From the NCBI GenBank assembly GCA_014729495.1, contig WJJV01000112.1:1-48136 (forward strand): a stretch of 48,136 bases of DNA, in the 5' to 3' direction. This stretch comes from Candidatus Woesearchaeota archaeon. GTDB taxonomy: Archaea; Nanobdellota; Nanobdellia; Woesearchaeales; UBA12501. A program made the translations under genes and the position numbers. The notes beneath the pieces were generated by a model. That model saw nothing but the letters and a program-made list of their open reading frames with translations, searched no databases and was not told the DNA's origin. Positions 33,441 through 42,327 of the stretch are shown here, in pieces; within the stretch, counting starts at the first letter, position 1, and each line of letters starts with the position of its first letter.

Positions 33441-33660
33441 TCCTAGCCTCTCCGATCAGGTGCTGCTATCTCTATGTCGGAGAGGTGGCAATGGCTTTAA
33501 GAGGATTGTATTGCATTTTTCTCCTAGCCTCTCCGATAAGCGCAGCAAATCCGGCCACGGAGAGGTGGTTATTCCTTTTAGTTTATTCTATTGCAACATA
33601 CTCCTATACTCTCCGGTTAGACGTTGCTACCCTGACATCGGAGAGGTGGCACTCCTCTTA
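33441..33660. repeat. Three tandem ~80-bp units, each an 8-9-bp hairpin CCTCTCCG(A)/(T)CGGAGAGG over a 21-23-nt variable loop, followed by GTGG
   Basis: Stems at 33447-33455/33477-33485, 33528-33535/33558-33565 and 33609-33615/33639-33645. The period is 81 then 80 bp. The flanks TCCTAGCC and GGTGGCA..CTTT.AG are also conserved. Confidence 0.85.
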
Positions 33661-33670
33661 GCTTTAGCTA

Positions 33671-33962
33671 GGCAGCAACAACAAGGACGAATATTGAGTG
33701 TAGAGGGAAAACCAGTTACGCAGTTCTGGTTTTCCCTTTACGAATAGGACAAATTGCGAAGCAATTTGGCCGTATATGAGTCCACTGTTGTTGTTGCTGC
33801 CTTATAAGTTATAGTATCTCCTTTTTGGCCGTCTGCTGCCAGTATTGTTGTTGCAAATGCAGAGCTTTTGCAACTAAGAAAATGCAAAGCATTTTCTGTT
33901 GTTGCCGATATTAACTTAAAATATTATCATCGACCGTGTACGAATCCAATGTTGCTGCTGCC
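33671..33962 (+). ncRNA. Candidate structured RNA / repeat module region (unclassified)
   Basis: A 14-bp inverted pair, 33671-33684/33788-33801, encloses a 15-bp hairpin at 33701-33740 (its G-U pair is plus-sense only) and an 8-bp GAA-triloop hairpin at 33750-33768. Further hairpins lie at 33850-33874 and 33878-33896 (AAA triloop). The TCC..TGTTG.TGCTGCC module recurs. Confidence 0.35.
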
Positions 33963-38540: not shown

Positions 38541-40823
38541 ATGCCTAAAGATAGTGACACAAAGGACAGGATCAGCAGTAAAGAGATAGAAGACATGATG
38601 CAGAGGTACAAGGAGAAGCTCAACAAGGAGTTCCGCGGACCTCTTACTGCTGAGAGAGGAGAAGCCTCTGTAAGGTCTCTTGATTATCAGGAGTTCAGGC
38701 AGGAGTTCATGCCAAAGAGGCTCAGCATCTATGAGAAGCTCTGCAACATGAGCGAGAAGCTGCTCAAGATAGCTCCTGACAAGAAAAAGACTGAGGATTA
38801 TGAAGAGGCAATAAGGATATGCCACCTCAGCACCACTCCCACAGGTGTTGTGTCATTCGCTGTCATAGCTCCCCTTCTACTGATTGTCATGGGTTCGGTA
38901 ATAAGCTATCTGCTATTCCAGTCCATGTTCTTCATAATGTTCTTTCTTATAGCAGGAGCAGCAATCTATGCCCCTCTGAACAAGCTTCCTATGTTCCTTG
39001 CCAACAGCTGGAGGATGAAAGCCAGCAACCAGATGGTCCTGTGTATCTTCTATGTTGTCACATATATGAGGCACACATCAAACCTTGAGCTGGGCATGAG
39101 ATTCGCCTCAGACCATCTTGCGCCTCCATTATCAATAGATCTCAAGAAGATCCTGTGGGATGTTGAGACAGAGAAGTACGAGTCAATAAAGGAATCGCTT
39201 GACAGCTACCTTGACACATGGAAGAAGTACAACATGGAGTTCATAGAAGCATTCCATCTTGTTGAATCATCATTATACGAAGGTGATGAGGACAGGAGGA
39301 TAAGCCTTCTTGATAAGTCCCTTTCAGTCATACTTGATGAGACATACGAGAAGATGCTTCATTATGCACAGAACCTGAAGTCTCCGATAACCATGCTCCA
39401 CATGCTTGGAATAATCCTGCCGATACTCGGCCTGGTCATACTTCCTCTTGTAGTCAGCTTCATGTGCCAGGTGGAATGGTATCATCTCGCTGCACTTTAC
39501 AATGTAGCACTGCCAATAATAGTCTATTATCTCGGCAAGAACATCCTGTCAACAAGACCCACAGGATATGGAGATACTGATGTATCAGAGGAGAATCCTG
39601 AGCTCAAGAAGTACAGGAACATAATAATACCTCTGGGTCCTTTTGAACTAAAGATAAGGCCTATGATTATCAGCATAATCTTTATAATATTATTTGTGGG
39701 TCTGGGAATAAGCCCTCTTGTCCTGCACATGTTCACAGCAGACTCAAACTGGGATCTGATAGTGCCAAAAAAAGGGGATAATCTCTTACAGACAACTTAT
39801 CAGCTTGAGGATCCTGATGAGAAGTTCGCTTTGCTTGGCTATAGGAAATCTCTTGGATGCCCTCCAGGAGAGACAAACTCTCCTGGATTTGGCGAGGTTG
39901 TGGGGCCTTTTGGCCTGGGAGCAGCGATCTTCAGTCTTCTTCTTATAATAGGCCTGGGAGTAGGAATCGGATTGTACTTCAGATTCAAGGCATCGAATGT
40001 GATAAAGATAAGGGACAAGGCAAAGCAGCTTGAGAAGGAGTTCGCTTCAGCGCTCTTCCAGCTCGGAAACAGGCTTGGTGACGGGCTTCCTGCTGAGATT
40101 GCATTCAGCAAGGTGGCTGCAGTGATGGGAGACAGTGTCTCAGGTTCATTCTTCACGCATGTATCTATGAACATAACCAGGATGGGAATGGGTGTTGAAG
40201 CAGCGATTTTTGATCCAAAGCATGGGGCTCTTGTATACTATCCTTCATCTTTGATAGAGAGCTCAATGAAAGTTCTTACAGAAAGCGCAAAGAAAGGGCC
40301 TGCAATAGCAGCAAGGGCTGTTATAAGCGTGTCAAGGTACATAAAGGAGATACATCGAGTGGACGAGAGGCTCAAGGACCTGATGGCTGACACCATAAGC
40401 TCAATGAAATCACAGATAAAGTTCCTCACACCAGCTATCGCAGGGATTGTGATCGGAATAACATCAATGATAACCACAATACTGGGCCAGCTTGGAGTTC
40501 AGCTCAGAACACTCACTTCAGGACAGGATGATGCAGCTCAGATGGGTGGTGCAGGCGGCATGATCAATATGTTTGGAGAAGGTGTTCCTACATTCTATTT
40601 CCAGATAATCGTGGGATTCTATGTTGTACAGCTGATATACATACTTACAATAATAACCAACGGAATAGAGAATGGATCAGACAGCCTTGGAGAGAGATTT
40701 GCTCTGGGAAAGAACCTGATAACAAGCACTTTATCTTATGCTGTCATTGCTCTGATAATCATGCTTGTATTCAATCTTATAGCAGGCACTATAATGGGAA
40801 AGCTAAATCTAGGTGGGGCTTGA
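38541..40823 (+). CDS. Polytopic membrane platform protein (FlaJ/TadC/PilC-like, tentative)
   Basis: 760 aa and multi-TM, with two cytoplasmic helical domains resembling T2SS-F repeats. It lies immediately downstream of the ATPase. Confidence 0.6.
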   Translation: MPKDSDTKDRISSKEIEDMMQRYKEKLNKEFRGPLTAERGEASVRSLDYQEFRQEFMPKRLSIYEKLCNMSEKLLKIAPDKKKTEDYEEAIRICHLSTTPTGVVSFAVIAPLLLIVMGSVISYLLFQSMFFIMFFLIAGAAIYAPLNKLPMFLANSWRMKASNQMVLCIFYVVTYMRHTSNLELGMRFASDHLAPPLSIDLKKILWDVETEKYESIKESLDSYLDTWKKYNMEFIEAFHLVESSLYEGDEDRRISLLDKSLSVILDETYEKMLHYAQNLKSPITMLHMLGIILPILGLVILPLVVSFMCQVEWYHLAALYNVALPIIVYYLGKNILSTRPTGYGDTDVSEENPELKKYRNIIIPLGPFELKIRPMIISIIFIILFVGLGISPLVLHMFTADSNWDLIVPKKGDNLLQTTYQLEDPDEKFALLGYRKSLGCPPGETNSPGFGEVVGPFGLGAAIFSLLLIIGLGVGIGLYFRFKASNVIKIRDKAKQLEKEFASALFQLGNRLGDGLPAEIAFSKVAAVMGDSVSGSFFTHVSMNITRMGMGVEAAIFDPKHGALVYYPSSLIESSMKVLTESAKKGPAIAARAVISVSRYIKEIHRVDERLKDLMADTISSMKSQIKFLTPAIAGIVIGITSMITTILGQLGVQLRTLTSGQDDAAQMGGAGGMINMFGEGVPTFYFQIIVGFYVVQLIYILTIITNGIENGSDSLGERFALGKNLITSTLSYAVIALIIMLVFNLIAGTIMGKLNLGGA

Positions 40824-40910
40824 AAAAAAGCATTTCTGAAGGATACAAAGAATTCTGTCTCAGAAATAATGCAAATGAAATCCCGACTTCATCTAAAATA
40901 TTAAATGCCT

Positions 40911-41185
40911 TAATAATGCCGACTCCTTTCAGTCGTCTGGCATTATTAAGCATTCAAAAACCAATTTTGCCGACTCAAAAGTTCGTCTGGCAAAATTATC
41001 AGAAGAATGCGTACAAAATTCCGACTCACTTTGTTTGTCTGGAATTTTGATGCATGTAAAAAGGCAAAATCCTATTGTGTAGAAAACATTAAATGCATAA
41101 ATAATCCCGACTCGCAAGCTCGTCTGGGATTATTAAGCATTCAAAAATCAATTTTGCCGACTCACAGGTTCGTCTGGCAAAATTG
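40911..41185 (-). repeat. Array of five hairpins with covarying A/T-rich arms and a conserved core (minus sense: CCAGAC-GA-N6-7-GA-GUCGG)
   Basis: Hairpins at 40911-40948, 40963-40997, 41014-41049, 41100-41134 and 41149-41185. Pairs H1+H2 and H4+H5 form a duplicated ~87-bp unit joined by AAGCATTCAAAAA. The minus-sense T7 run at 40823-40829 could terminate a tRNA-trailer transcript. Confidence 0.8.
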
Positions 41186-41195
41186 CTTTATTGAA

Positions 41196-41297
41196 TGGGA
41201 CAGCCGGGATTTGAACCCGGAACACCTAGATTTCTTATGCCTGGCATTGCCTGGAGAATCTTCAGTCTAGTGCTCTCCCAGGTTGAGCTACTGTCCC
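41196..41297 (-). tRNA. tRNA-Phe: tRNA-Phe (GAA) with a ~28-nt intron at the canonical 37/38 position; no encoded CCA
   Basis: Manual cloverleaf, in order: acceptor GGGACAG/CTGTCCC; D arm GCTC-AACCTGGGA-GAGC; anticodon stem CTAGA/TCTAG with loop CTGAAGA interrupted by ATTCTCCAGGCAATGCCAGGCATAAGAA; T arm CCGGG-TTCAAAT-CCCGG; discriminator A. Confidence 0.9.
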
Positions 41298-41328
41298 AAA
41301 AAGACAATGAAATGAAAAAGTTATAGGA

Positions 41329-41847
41329 TCACTCGATCTTTTCTTCTTCAACATCAAGATCAAGCTGTTCATCCTCAGTCGCTGATGACTCAGGATTGCC
41401 TGTCGGCTTGTTGAGCTCCTCAAGGTCCTGCTCTTCTGTCTTCTCATCCTGACTTAGAGGCTGGGTTGCTTCCTGAGTATCCTGCTCAACAGTGCTCTCT
41501 TCCTTGAGCTCGTCATCTGTCACAGCCTGGACATTGTCATCTCCTGCTGGTCCTATGACCTCAAGGCTTCCGAACTTTCCGGTTGTGAGCTGAGATTCTC
41601 CCTGCCACTCATTAACATAGCCGTTCTTGATCTGGATCCTGTCACCTACCTTCACCTGATCAATCTGCTCATTCCAGAGAGTGAGGGCCATTGTGCCTGA
41701 CTCATCCTTGATCTTTGCATTGCATACTCTTCCCTGTTTCCCGAACTTGTTGAACTCCCTGATGTCGCCTTTCTCGACAACTTCAGCAGCTAGCTCAACA
41801 CTTCCTTGTTTTGGTTTTAATTCGCTTATTTGCATAATAGAGGCCAT
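41329..41847 (-). CDS. OB-fold single-stranded DNA-binding protein (SSB/RPA-like) with an acidic C-terminal tail
   Basis: The OB fold is GRVCNAKIKDESGTMALTLWNEQIDQVKVGDRIQIKNGYVNEWQGESQL, followed by a long D/E-rich tail. The start may be the internal ATG at 41835, given the TATA spacing. Confidence 0.7.
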   Translation of the reverse strand: MASIMQISELKPKQGSVELAAEVVEKGDIREFNKFGKQGRVCNAKIKDESGTMALTLWNEQIDQVKVGDRIQIKNGYVNEWQGESQLTTGKFGSLEVIGPAGDDNVQAVTDDELKEESTVEQDTQEATQPLSQDEKTEEQDLEELNKPTGNPESSATEDEQLDLDVEEEKIE

Positions 41848-41919
41848 TTAGAGGGGGTTTTATATAAAGTTTATGGACAGTTTAGAATATGCTGCTTGGG
41901 GAATATACTGCTTAGGTTC

Positions 41920-42327
41920 TCAGAAATGATGCATCATCGCATCAACCCTGCTTTCCTGCCATCCCTGATGCATGAGAGCGGCCTTCACATCTTCTTTAGA
42001 ATATCCCTGAGCAATGGTTGATTTTATGTATTCTTCAGCTGCACTAAGCTTTTCTGGAGGTATCTGGGATAGTATCCTCTGCCTTTCTTTTTGGTGCTTG
42101 ACAAGGAATACCATGCCGATTATGCCCATAATTATTATGAGGAACACCACTATTGCAAGAACCATATTCTGGGAGAGGAATTCTGCTGCAGTAACTGATC
42201 CTGTAACATCCTCTACAGCACTTCCTGTTATGGGCTCATAAGGAGTCATAAGAATCATGATGCCAAAACATACTAGAATGAAAACACCTATTGCTCCGTA
42301 ATTTAGATCCTCTTTTTTCTTCATCAT
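41920..42327 (-). CDS. Two-TM membrane protein with a C-terminal two-helix motif
   Basis: 135 aa. The C-terminal AQGYSKEDVKAALMHQGWQESRVDAMM resembles the N-terminal motif of 34105-34902. Confidence 0.5.
   Translation of the reverse strand: MMKKKEDLNYGAIGVFILVCFGIMILMTPYEPITGSAVEDVTGSVTAAEFLSQNMVLAIVVFLIIIMGIIGMVFLVKHQKERQRILSQIPPEKLSAAEEYIKSTIAQGYSKEDVKAALMHQGWQESRVDAMMHHF

What the first reader, a model, noticed from the sequence alone, without database searches (positions are those of the whole stretch)
40824..41195. Five covarying hairpins with a conserved bulged core and tandem G-A potential, directly downstream of tRNA-Phe
Five hairpins (40911-40948, 40963-40997, 41014-41049, 41100-41134, 41149-41185) share the core CCGACTC-N-TCGTCTGG. 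Their 8-10-bp A/T-rich arms differ between copies but stay complementary. For example, TAATAATGCC/GGCATTATTA versus AATAATCCC/GGGATTATT shows a G-to-C change compensated by a C-to-G change.

Read on the minus strand, the strand of tRNA-Phe, each hairpin is arm-CC-A-GAC-GA-(6-7 nt)-GA-GUC-GG-arm. That gives a bulged A and a loop closed by 5'-GA/GA-3', which could form tandem sheared G-A pairs (K-loop/K-turn-like). In the plus sense the same positions are U/C mismatches.

The array begins 10 nt past the tRNA 3' end. It finishes at a minus-sense T7 run (40823-40829) abutting the platform-gene stop. It could therefore be a ~370-nt tRNA 3' trailer or an independent sRNA array.

Inference: these may be repeated binding sites for an L7Ae-like or other RNA-binding protein, or a new REP-like element family.
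Basis: partly seen in the sequence, partly recalled or inferred. Interest (0 to 1): 0.6.

Follow-up and report, generated by a model that had tools for sequence, protein, structure and literature searches.

The report
tRNA-end-targeting palindromic repeat in Woesearchaeota
The five hairpins are real copies of a small, non-coding, hairpin-forming repeat that has spread through a group of tiny (DPANN/Woesearchaeota) archaea and almost always lands exactly at the end of a tRNA gene; it behaves like selfish mobile DNA, not like a K-turn protein-binding RNA.

Summary
Observation confirmed. All five hairpins exist with the core CCGACTC-N6-7-TYGTCTGG, and arm complementarity is maintained by compensatory changes (65 distinct copies, 96% paired, 0/500 shuffles).

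They are not a locus-specific RNA. The core occurs about 20 times in this genome, in 7 of 17 genomes of its family, and in about 12 further Woesearchaeota/Nanoarchaeota MAGs.

Two flavours exist:
- **S-type:** hairpin plus a second hairpin, inserted at TAA inside other repeats. Empty sites are preserved.
- **D-type:** a roughly 100-nt dimer, hpA-A5-hpB. Its end abuts the last base of a tRNA gene in about 41 loci. Two exceptions abut a tRNA 5' end.

The window holds three tandem D-type dimers (one truncated) plus a decayed remnant. The orthologous stop-codon-to-tRNA-Phe spacer in three congeners is about 40-125 nt and has no hairpin.

Best reading (0.6): a REP/PATE-like non-autonomous mobile element that inserts next to stems, mainly after tRNA ends of the form SCA. 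An unidentified protein would recognise the asymmetric core. Each hpB carries a T4-T6 run in tRNA sense and may have been co-opted as a terminator.

The K-turn/L7Ae reading fails because there is no 3-nt bulge. No RNA data were available, so transcription remains untested.

The parts
40823..40829 (-). T7 run in tRNA sense, abutting the TGA stop of the platform gene. Probably the ancestral oligo-T terminator of tRNA-Phe, now ~370 nt from the tRNA.
   Evidence: G003 keeps a T7 two nt after the tRNA-Phe end.
40868..40900 (.). Decayed remnant of a short-variant hairpin (AATGCAAATGAAATCCCGACTTCATC...). The left arm and CCCGACTTCATC are kept; the right arm is lost.
   Evidence: family D3. Compare the intact short variant ATAAATAATCCCGACTTCATCGGGATTATTAGA at G000:C71.
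40904..40955 (.). Hairpin 1 = hpA of the distal dimer (core 40919-40940, arms AATGCCTTAATAATG / CATTATTAAGCATT).
   Evidence: -23.1 kcal/mol, z -6.7. CM R1 46.6 bits.
40958..41000 (.). Hairpin 2 = hpB of the distal dimer (core 40970-40990).
   Evidence: CM 54.8 bits.
41006..41057 (.). Hairpin 3 = hpA of the middle dimer (core 41021-41042, TTGTCTGG variant).
   Evidence: CM 46.3 bits.
41053..41072 (.). Truncated hpB of the middle dimer. The linker CATGTAAAAA and left arm GGCAAAATCC are present, then the copy breaks off.
   Evidence: Compare the full units CATGTAAAAAGGCATAATCCCGACTC... at G000:C126 and G003:C126.
41092..41142 (.). Hairpin 4 = hpA of the tRNA-proximal dimer (core 41107-41127). 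It is the best match to the family model.
   Evidence: CM 63.5 bits..
41138..41197 (.). Hairpin 5 = hpB of the proximal dimer, with ~20-nt arms (CATTCAAAAATCAATTTTG / CAAAATTGCTTTATTGAATG; core 41157-41177). In tRNA sense it starts right after the discriminator and is followed by a T5 run.
   Evidence: -21.8 kcal/mol, z -5.3..
41196..41297 (-). tRNA-Phe(GAA) gene with a ~31-nt intron. Its 3' end is the insertion point of the array.
   Evidence: Rfam RF00005, 57.2 bits.

Best explanation
The array is a pile-up of copies of a non-autonomous, hairpin-forming mobile DNA element (REP / PATE / MITE-like) specific to some Woesearchaeota.

Each unit is a stem whose arms are free to vary as long as they pair. 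The arms enclose an almost invariant asymmetric core. On one strand this reads CC-GAC-TC...TC-GTC-T-GG. On the other it reads CC-A-GAC-GA...GA-GUC-GG.

- **Inferred:** the core (one bulged base plus a 2x2 internal loop) is the recognition site of a trans-acting protein that moves or copies the element while it is folded as a single strand.
- **Shown:** the element is inserted next to existing stems.
  - The S-type sits at TAA inside other palindromic repeats.
  - The D-type dimer sits exactly at the end of tRNA genes, with repeated insertions there.
- **Inferred:** each new insertion pushes older copies outward, which then decay.
- **Inferred:** the target is a short sequence, roughly (G/C)(C/T)A, just 3' of a stem. 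In AT-rich intergenic DNA this occurs almost only at tRNA ends.
- **Inferred side effect:** in tRNA sense every hpB brings a hairpin plus a T4-T6 run. The element probably now terminates transcription of the tRNA it sits behind.
For: **(1) Multi-copy, extragenic and patchy**
- About 20 copies in G000, on both strands and all intergenic.
- Present in 7 of 17 family genomes with 2-30 copies, and in 0 of 44 sampled genomes of other families in the order.
- The core also occurs in ~12 further Woesearchaeota/Nanoarchaeota MAGs.

**(2) Gain and loss**
- The orthologous stop-to-tRNA-Phe spacer is ~40-125 nt with no hairpin in G002, G003 and G004, against 372 nt here.
- At another tRNA the unit is present in all four congeners checked, but in four different forms.

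**(3) Preserved empty sites**
- GGGTT-TAA-TACCCC is empty in seven G000 contigs. It is filled as GGGTT-TAA-[AGATAATC..core..GCAAG]-TAA-TACCCC in four.
- A second host repeat shows the same pattern: CATC-TAA-AATGC empty versus filled.

**(4) Nested copies**
- Copies sit inside the loop of another copy in G001 and G007.

**(5) Structure under selection**
- 96% of cells are paired and 8 of 13 pairs carry double changes. 0 of 500 shuffles reach this, and slid controls give 22-53% paired.
- The core helix GAC/GTC changes to GAT/ATC in at least 3 copies.

**(6) Targeting**
- All 8 D-type loci in G000, and ~41 overall, have the hpB end at the tRNA discriminator.
- Two loci abut a tRNA 5' end on the same strand instead. 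This points to a DNA-level geometry rule, not a trailer function.
- 7 of 8 element-bearing G000 tRNAs end in SCA, against 1 of 11 element-free ones. Hand-computed hypergeometric p is about 0.001.

**(7) Array order**
- The tRNA-proximal dimer scores best (63.5 and 57.2 bits). Distal copies score lower, are truncated or are decayed.

**(8) A single-strand HUH transposase exists in the lineage**
- A single-copy IS200-like Y1 gene is found in G001, G007 and G013, the three most complete element-positive relatives.
- It is flanked by CTTTAG-loop hairpins. The same module occurs in the G000 repeats that host S-type insertions.
Against: - **No mobilising enzyme identified.**
  - G000 (91% complete) has no Y1 transposase, no TnpB and no multi-copy ORF family.
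  - The Y1 genes of relatives are flanked by a different hairpin type. Y1 genes also occur in two element-negative genomes.
- **No insertion polymorphism within a population was seen.**
- **D-type units show no target-site duplication.** Their left boundary could not be fixed.
- **Some features fit a host-maintained function.** These are the near-invariance of the 21-nt core across families, the retention at one tRNA across the genus, and the constant tRNA-sense T-run.
- **The strand that folds is undetermined.** Wobble counts are 5 A.C versus 2 G.T.
Confidence: 0.6

Rival explanations
1. Host-maintained tRNA 3'-end module. The D-type cassette is transcribed with the tRNA. The long hpB stem starts right after the discriminator and is followed by an oligo-U tract. 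It would serve as a terminator, a 3'-processing or stability platform, or the source of a small hairpin RNA bound by a dedicated protein through the bulged-A / tandem G.A core.
For: - About 41 loci share one orientation relative to the tRNA, with zero spacing.
- A T4-T6 run follows hpB in tRNA sense in 24 of 26 copies, and the plus-sense counterpart is interrupted by a bulged base.
- The cassette is retained behind one tRNA in all four congeners, with compensatory arm changes.
- The core is invariant across families.
Against: - Two loci sit at a tRNA 5' end in the opposite transcriptional sense.
- S-type copies lie far from tRNAs, in both orientations relative to genes, with TAA junctions and empty sites.
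- tRNA-Phe of three congeners works without the cassette.
- Arrays contain truncated and decayed copies.
- No transcript data exist.
Confidence: 0.2
2. Folded recombination sites (attC-like or att-like) used by a tyrosine recombinase that targets tRNA ends. The array would be a string of empty cassettes or integration scars.
For: - Hairpins with an extrahelical base, an unpaired central loop and a variable apical part loosely recall attC.
- A few loci are bounded by 12-23-nt direct copies of the tRNA 3' end: G007:C51, DeMMO3_27, G013:C29 and MFD03726.
Against: - 27 of 30 D-type loci have no duplicate of the tRNA end within 600 nt.
- No ORF lies between hairpins, which are ~50 nt apart.
- There are no RYYYAAC/GTTRRRY boxes.
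- The same unit sits behind many different tRNAs, which a sequence-specific att core cannot explain.
Confidence: 0.1
3. One reading: repeated K-turn/K-loop sites that bind L7Ae, or an independent small-RNA array.
For: On the tRNA strand the internal loop reads 5'-GA/GA-3'. It could form tandem sheared G.A pairs, and these positions are invariant.
Against: - There is no 3-nt bulge next to the G.A pairs. The single bulged A is three base pairs away.
- Rfam finds no family at E<=10.
- Short variants lack the GA/GA loop altogether yet occupy the same positions.
- Orientation relative to transcription is not fixed.
Confidence: 0.04

Closest known systems
REP / BIME / REPIN elements mobilised by RAYT (HUH Y1) transposases in bacteria
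   Same: Short imperfect palindromes with a bulged base. Extragenic, tens of copies, clustered in arrays and lineage-specific. The stem is maintained by compensatory change around a conserved recognition core. A possible secondary role as terminators.
   Different: No GTAG/CGTC tag. Units in a cluster are direct, not inverted. No RAYT gene flanked by these hairpins. Strict placement at tRNA gene ends.
PATEs and other IS200/IS605-derived miniature elements (haloarchaea; own knowledge)
   Same: No terminal inverted repeats. Different subterminal hairpins at the two ends (S-type: core hairpin plus a second hairpin). Insertion 3' of a short target without a true duplication would give the observed TAA...TAA junctions. 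IS200-like Y1 genes exist in relatives.
   Different: No tnpA or tnpB in this genome. The Y1 genes of relatives carry a different (CTTTAG-loop) hairpin. Units are much shorter, 40-100 nt.
Elements that target DNA stem-loops: group IIC introns (after terminator hairpins) and IS1111/IS110 members (in REP or attC) (own knowledge)
   Same: Insertion a few bases 3' of a stem, in fixed orientation, giving tandem accumulation at the same site.
   Different: Those are autonomous, with a ribozyme plus RT or a DEDD transposase. Here no coding partner is known and the target stem is the tRNA acceptor stem.
tRNA-gene-targeting integrative elements (tyrosine integrases)
   Same: Preference for the 3' end of tRNA genes. 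Tandem accretion.
   Different: Those regenerate and duplicate 15-50 nt of the tRNA. 27 of 30 loci here show no such duplicate, and one unit type serves many tRNA species.
K-turn / K-loop RNA motifs bound by L7Ae
   Same: Potential tandem sheared G.A pairs on the tRNA strand.
   Different: The 3-nt bulge that defines a K-turn is lacking, and the loop is symmetric.

Membership tests
K-turn / K-loop (L7Ae site) | A three-nucleotide bulge immediately 5' of tandem sheared G.A pairs, between a canonical and a non-canonical stem | tested here: not met
   Structure CC-A-GAC-GA-[mini-stem]-GA-GUC-GG. It has a symmetric 2x2 loop and a 1-nt bulge three base pairs away.
K-turn / K-loop (L7Ae site) | Binding by L7Ae | not testable with these tools
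   Needs EMSA or structure probing.
REP/REPIN-RAYT | Short extragenic imperfect palindromes in many copies | tested here: met
   About 20 copies, all intergenic.
REP/REPIN-RAYT | Conserved GTAG or CGTC tetranucleotide at the 5' foot | tested here: not met
   The flanks are AATGC / AAAGATAAT, with no GTAG or CGTC.
REP/REPIN-RAYT | A cognate single-copy RAYT (Y1) gene flanked by the REPs | tested here: not met
   PF01797 is absent in G000. The Y1 genes in G001 and G007 are flanked by CTTTAG-loop hairpins, not by this core.
MITE (DDE-transposon derived) | Terminal inverted repeats plus a fixed-length target-site duplication | tested here: inconclusive
   S-type has TAA on both sides with empty sites, but its ends are not inverted repeats. 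D-type is itself a palindrome, with no duplication seen.
MITE (DDE-transposon derived) | A parent IS with matching ends | tested here: not met
   No multi-copy ORF in G000. Repeated units in other MAGs are 170-270 nt and non-coding.
IS200/IS605-type miniature element (PATE) | Subterminal hairpins, no TIR, no duplication, insertion 3' of a short target | tested here: inconclusive
   The S-type anatomy and the TAA|...GTAA| junctions fit. The enzyme and the cleavage sites are unknown.
Integron attC | R and L boxes (RYYYAAC/GTTRRRY) closing gene cassettes | tested here: not met
   No such boxes. The hairpins are 50 nt apart with no ORFs between them.
CRISPR array | Identical repeats with unique spacers of uniform length | tested here: not met
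   The arms differ between copies. Spacing is 51, 51, 86 and 50 nt, and the linkers are themselves repeated.
Any Rfam family | Covariance-model match | tested here: not met
   Only the tRNA matched at E<=10 in 40000-42000.

The most novel reading that the evidence does not exclude
The D-type cassette is a portable tRNA 3'-end module that the host has come to depend on. It would install itself precisely after the discriminator base of tRNA genes. There it would provide the terminator and a protein-binding hairpin (bulged A plus tandem G.A) that feeds into tRNA 3' maturation or quality control in these reduced archaea. A dedicated, still unknown protein would recognise the same core in both DNA (for spreading) and RNA (for function).
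Probability: 0.2. Interest if true: 0.7.

Novelty: new variant of a known kind. Interest (0 to 1): 0.5.

Why it matters
Small palindromic repeats are well studied in bacteria, but almost nothing is published for DPANN archaea. Their genomes are tiny and yet, as seen here, full of modular hairpin repeats.

This family has an unusually sharp rule: zero-distance placement at tRNA acceptor-stem ends. It also has a very simple, invariant structural core.

Together these make it a tractable entry point for three questions:
- Which enzyme moves such elements in archaea.
- How a mobile element can recognise the end of many different tRNA genes.
- Whether such insertions have been co-opted as tRNA terminators.

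Practically, these repeats break assemblies and confuse tRNA and sRNA annotation in Woesearchaeota MAGs.

Tried and rejected
- **ARAGORN** found no tRNA in the window. Rfam did.
- **Rfam at E<=10** gave nothing for the hairpins, nor for the host repeats.
- **TnpB (PF07282) and Y1 (PF01797)** are absent from G000. tblastn with the G001 and G007 Y1 proteins was negative.
- **An all-against-all ORF search for multi-copy transposases** found only contig-end duplicates of ordinary genes.
- **The wobble-pair test for the folding strand** was uninformative, 5 versus 2.
- **The bacterial-type terminator scan** found none.
- **RNA evidence was unobtainable.** Only two runs hold related sequence. Both are stored as contigs of relatives ~90-95% identical to the window. 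No RNA run was found for loci of G001 or G013.
- **Literature searches** found no description of tRNA-end palindromic repeats in DPANN.
- **Rejected readings:** CRISPR, integron attC, BHB intron motif (the bulges and helix have the wrong sizes), H/ACA or C/D guide RNAs (no pocket, no boxes), and a large integrated island (gene order around tRNA-Phe is conserved in congeners).
- **Homology between part of the array (40991-41013) and the G003 spacer** was suggested by MAFFT. I could not decide whether it is real.

Full report
**1. The observation**

The region 40824-41195 lies between the TGA stop of a 760-aa ORF (38541-40823, +) and a minus-strand tRNA-Phe(GAA). That ORF has no Pfam hit and follows a T2SSE-type ATPase gene. 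The tRNA lies at 41196-41297 and carries a ~31-nt intron (Rfam 57 bits). ARAGORN missed it.

Five same-strand hairpins share the core CCGACTC-N6-7-T(C/T)GTCTGG. Their cores start at 40919, 40970, 41021, 41107 and 41157. None is expected by chance. All fold well on either strand, with z-scores of -3.5 to -6.7.

Hairpin 5 has ~20-nt arms at 41138-41197, which reach the tRNA discriminator.

**2. It is a repeat family, not a local RNA**

The core occurs 15 times exactly in the 1.35-Mb, 134-contig genome, and about 20 times with one mismatch or by covariance model. It lies on both strands and is always between long ORFs.

A covariance model built from 26 copies (A1, R1) gives this distribution:
- It finds the hairpin in 7 of the 17 species of the GTDB family, in 3 of 11 genera, with 2-30 copies each.
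- The plain pattern is absent from 44 genomes of other families of the order.
- A scan of all GTDB species representatives finds it in ~12 further MAGs. These are labelled Woesearchaeota, Nanoarchaeota or 'archaeon'.

On 65 distinct copies, 96% of cells pair. Eight of 13 pairs show changes on both sides. No shuffle of 500 reaches this, and slid controls give 22-53% pairing. Even the core helix GAC/GTC is replaced by GAT/ATC in at least three copies.

Five features stay constant:
- the CC/GG pairs
- G-C
- A-T
- one bulged T (A on the other strand)
- a TC/TC (GA/GA) 2x2 loop

The apical part varies. It is G-CAAG-C, GG-CAAG-CC or AC..GT. In 'short variants' the whole upper part is replaced, as in CCCGAC-TTCA-TCGGG.

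**3. Two flavours**

*S-type.* The unit is AGATAAT(C/G)-core-(G/C)ATTATC followed by a second, unrelated hairpin such as AGACTTGCGAAC..GTTCGCAAG. It sits inside other abundant repeats.
- In one host repeat the site GGGTT-TAA-TACCCC is empty in seven contigs and filled in four, with TAA on both sides.
- A second host repeat gives the same picture at CATC-TAA-AATGC.
- In G001 and G007 an S-type unit sits inside the loop of another copy of the core hairpin.
- Orientation relative to flanking genes is not fixed.

*D-type.* This is a ~100-nt dimer:

(G)AATGC-hpA-GCATT(C/T)-A4-6-hpB-TT(A/G/C)TT..AATG

The outer parts of hpB pair to give a ~20-bp stem.

**4. The tRNA rule**

Every D-type unit I could examine ends exactly at a tRNA gene. 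The last bases of the hpB arm are followed by the complement of the discriminator and the acceptor stem.
- This holds for 8 of 8 D-type loci in G000.
- It holds for 13 of 13 dimers first inspected in seven genomes.
- Across all loci fetched the total is about 41, with tRNAs confirmed by Rfam for many.

So, on the tRNA strand, the order is: tRNA, discriminator, hpB (reading CCAGACGA..GAGUCGG), a T4-T6 run, then hpA.

Two loci break the transcriptional rule but keep the geometric one. In SAG AM-311-I03 and in SI073_bin58 the same end of hpB abuts the 5' end of a tRNA on the same strand. What is constant is 'element end next to the foot of the acceptor stem'. That is a property of the DNA.

In G000, 7 of 8 element-bearing tRNAs end in (G/C)CA, against 1 of 11 element-free tRNAs (from; hypergeometric p about 0.001, computed by hand). 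The two S-type sites read, on the same strand..GTA| and ..GCA| just 3' of a stem. I infer a short target of this kind, but the numbers are small.

**5. The window's array**

Read with the dimer in mind, the array has these parts:
- an intact proximal dimer (41092-41197)
- a middle dimer whose hpB is cut off after its left arm (41006-41072)
- an intact distal dimer (40904-41000)
- a decayed short-variant remnant (40868-40900)

Model scores fall with distance from the tRNA: 63.5 and 57.2 bits proximal, against 46-55 bits distal.

In G003, G004 and G002 the same stop-codon-to-tRNA-Phe interval is only ~40-125 nt and has no hairpin. In G003 a T7 run follows the tRNA by 2 nt. In G000 a T7 run survives next to the stop codon.

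The simplest history is repeated insertion at the tRNA end, pushing earlier copies and the old terminator outward. Tandem duplication cannot be excluded.

Contigs of relatives ~90-95% identical to the window, held in two public runs, also carry hairpin 5 next to tRNA-Phe.

At another tRNA (5' end GCGCCGG) the unit is present in G000, G002, G003 and G004, in four different forms:
- short hpA plus full hpB
- full plus full
- one chimeric hairpin
- full hpA plus short hpB

The arms carry compensatory changes. Similar arrays of 4-6 hairpins behind tRNAs occur in G007 and in OS_PC_MetaG.mb.26.

**6. Who moves it?**

Unknown. G000 has no Y1 transposase, no TnpB and no multi-copy ORF.

The three most complete element-positive relatives (G001, G007, G013) each have one IS200-like Y1 gene. 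G001 and G007 are 51% identical to each other, and G013 is 26-32% identical to them. Set against that:
- Two element-negative genomes also have a more distant Y1.
- The G001 and G007 genes are flanked by CTTTAG-loop hairpins (ACCCCAACCTTTAGGTTGGGG), not by the CCGACTC core.

Those CTTTAG hairpins are a module of the G000 repeats into which S-type units are inserted. So single-strand (HUH) transposition is present in the lineage and linked to the surrounding repeat landscape. Its link to this family remains an inference.

**7. Function**

No RNA data could be found. In tRNA sense hpB is followed by T4-T6 in 24 of 26 copies. Oligo-T is the archaeal termination signal (established knowledge), so the cassette probably now ends the tRNA transcript. 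This is inferred, not shown.

The K-turn idea fails on anatomy. The G.A positions form a symmetric internal loop, and the only bulge is a single base three pairs away.

A few loci are additionally bounded by 12-23-nt copies of the tRNA end, but 27 of 30 are not. An integrase/att mechanism is therefore not the general explanation.

**8. Verdict**

The best interpretation is a REP/PATE-like mobile palindromic element with a striking specificity for tRNA gene ends, possibly co-opted as a terminator. It is a new variant of a known kind. The enzyme, the strand that folds and any RNA role remain open.

Noticed in passing
G000 contigs C10:7647-7826, C18:16450-16700, C55:7330-7600, C123:2440-2720 and dozens more (often at contig ends): A much more abundant modular repeat, TTATTGAAAATGGCACC ... 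AATTTTTATTAT, built of nested stems with swappable hairpin modules separated by TAA. It is the 'host' of S-type insertions and probably the main cause of assembly breaks.
   Followed up: partly
G001:C20:6959-7306 (L115 1462-1872); G007:C25:9110-9460 (L114); G013:C30:45-389: Single-copy IS200-like Y1 transposase genes flanked by CTTTAG-loop hairpins (for example GATACCCCAACCTTTAGGTTGGGGAG). The same hairpin module occurs in the G000 host repeats, although G000 itself has no Y1 gene.
   Followed up: partly
G007:C51 (L062 ~330-640); DeMMO3_27 (L098); G013:C29 (L068); MFD03726 (L091 ~2400-2540); AlinenSediments bin-2373 (L097): Some hairpin cassettes behind tRNAs are bounded by a direct copy of the last 12-23 bases of the tRNA (att-like duplication). 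This feature is absent from 27 of 30 D-type loci.
   Followed up: partly
window 41196-41297; L041, L042, L049, L056, L057: tRNA genes of this genus carry introns at several non-canonical positions, including the T-loop. ARAGORN finds none of them in the window, and the quick Rfam screen finds only 18 tRNAs in the genome.
   Followed up: no
G001:C3:43854-43954, G001:C1:38572-38674, G007:C4:17428-17528: A core hairpin with a ~60-nt S-type unit (short-variant hairpin plus second hairpin) nested in its loop. The composite is itself multi-copy in two genera.
   Followed up: partly
L088 (JAPLJP010000057.1); CAYNHV01 records (= G001): One S-type copy lies on a contig of a MAG labelled Deltaproteobacteria, and G001's public record is labelled Methanosarcinales. 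Both labels look like binning or naming errors for Woesearchaeota DNA.
   Followed up: no
window 33512-33804: BLAST of another repeat family (upstream of the C8 and C127 hairpin loci) also hits this gene-free stretch of the window, so that gap too is built of dispersed repeats.
   Followed up: no
L042 ~2150-2260 (G002:C40): Between the platform gene and tRNA-Phe, G002 carries an extra tRNA-like or fragmentary element (gtggggcaggtgggattccc...ccccactccatgcg) instead of hairpins. A related piece follows the tRNA in G003.
   Followed up: no
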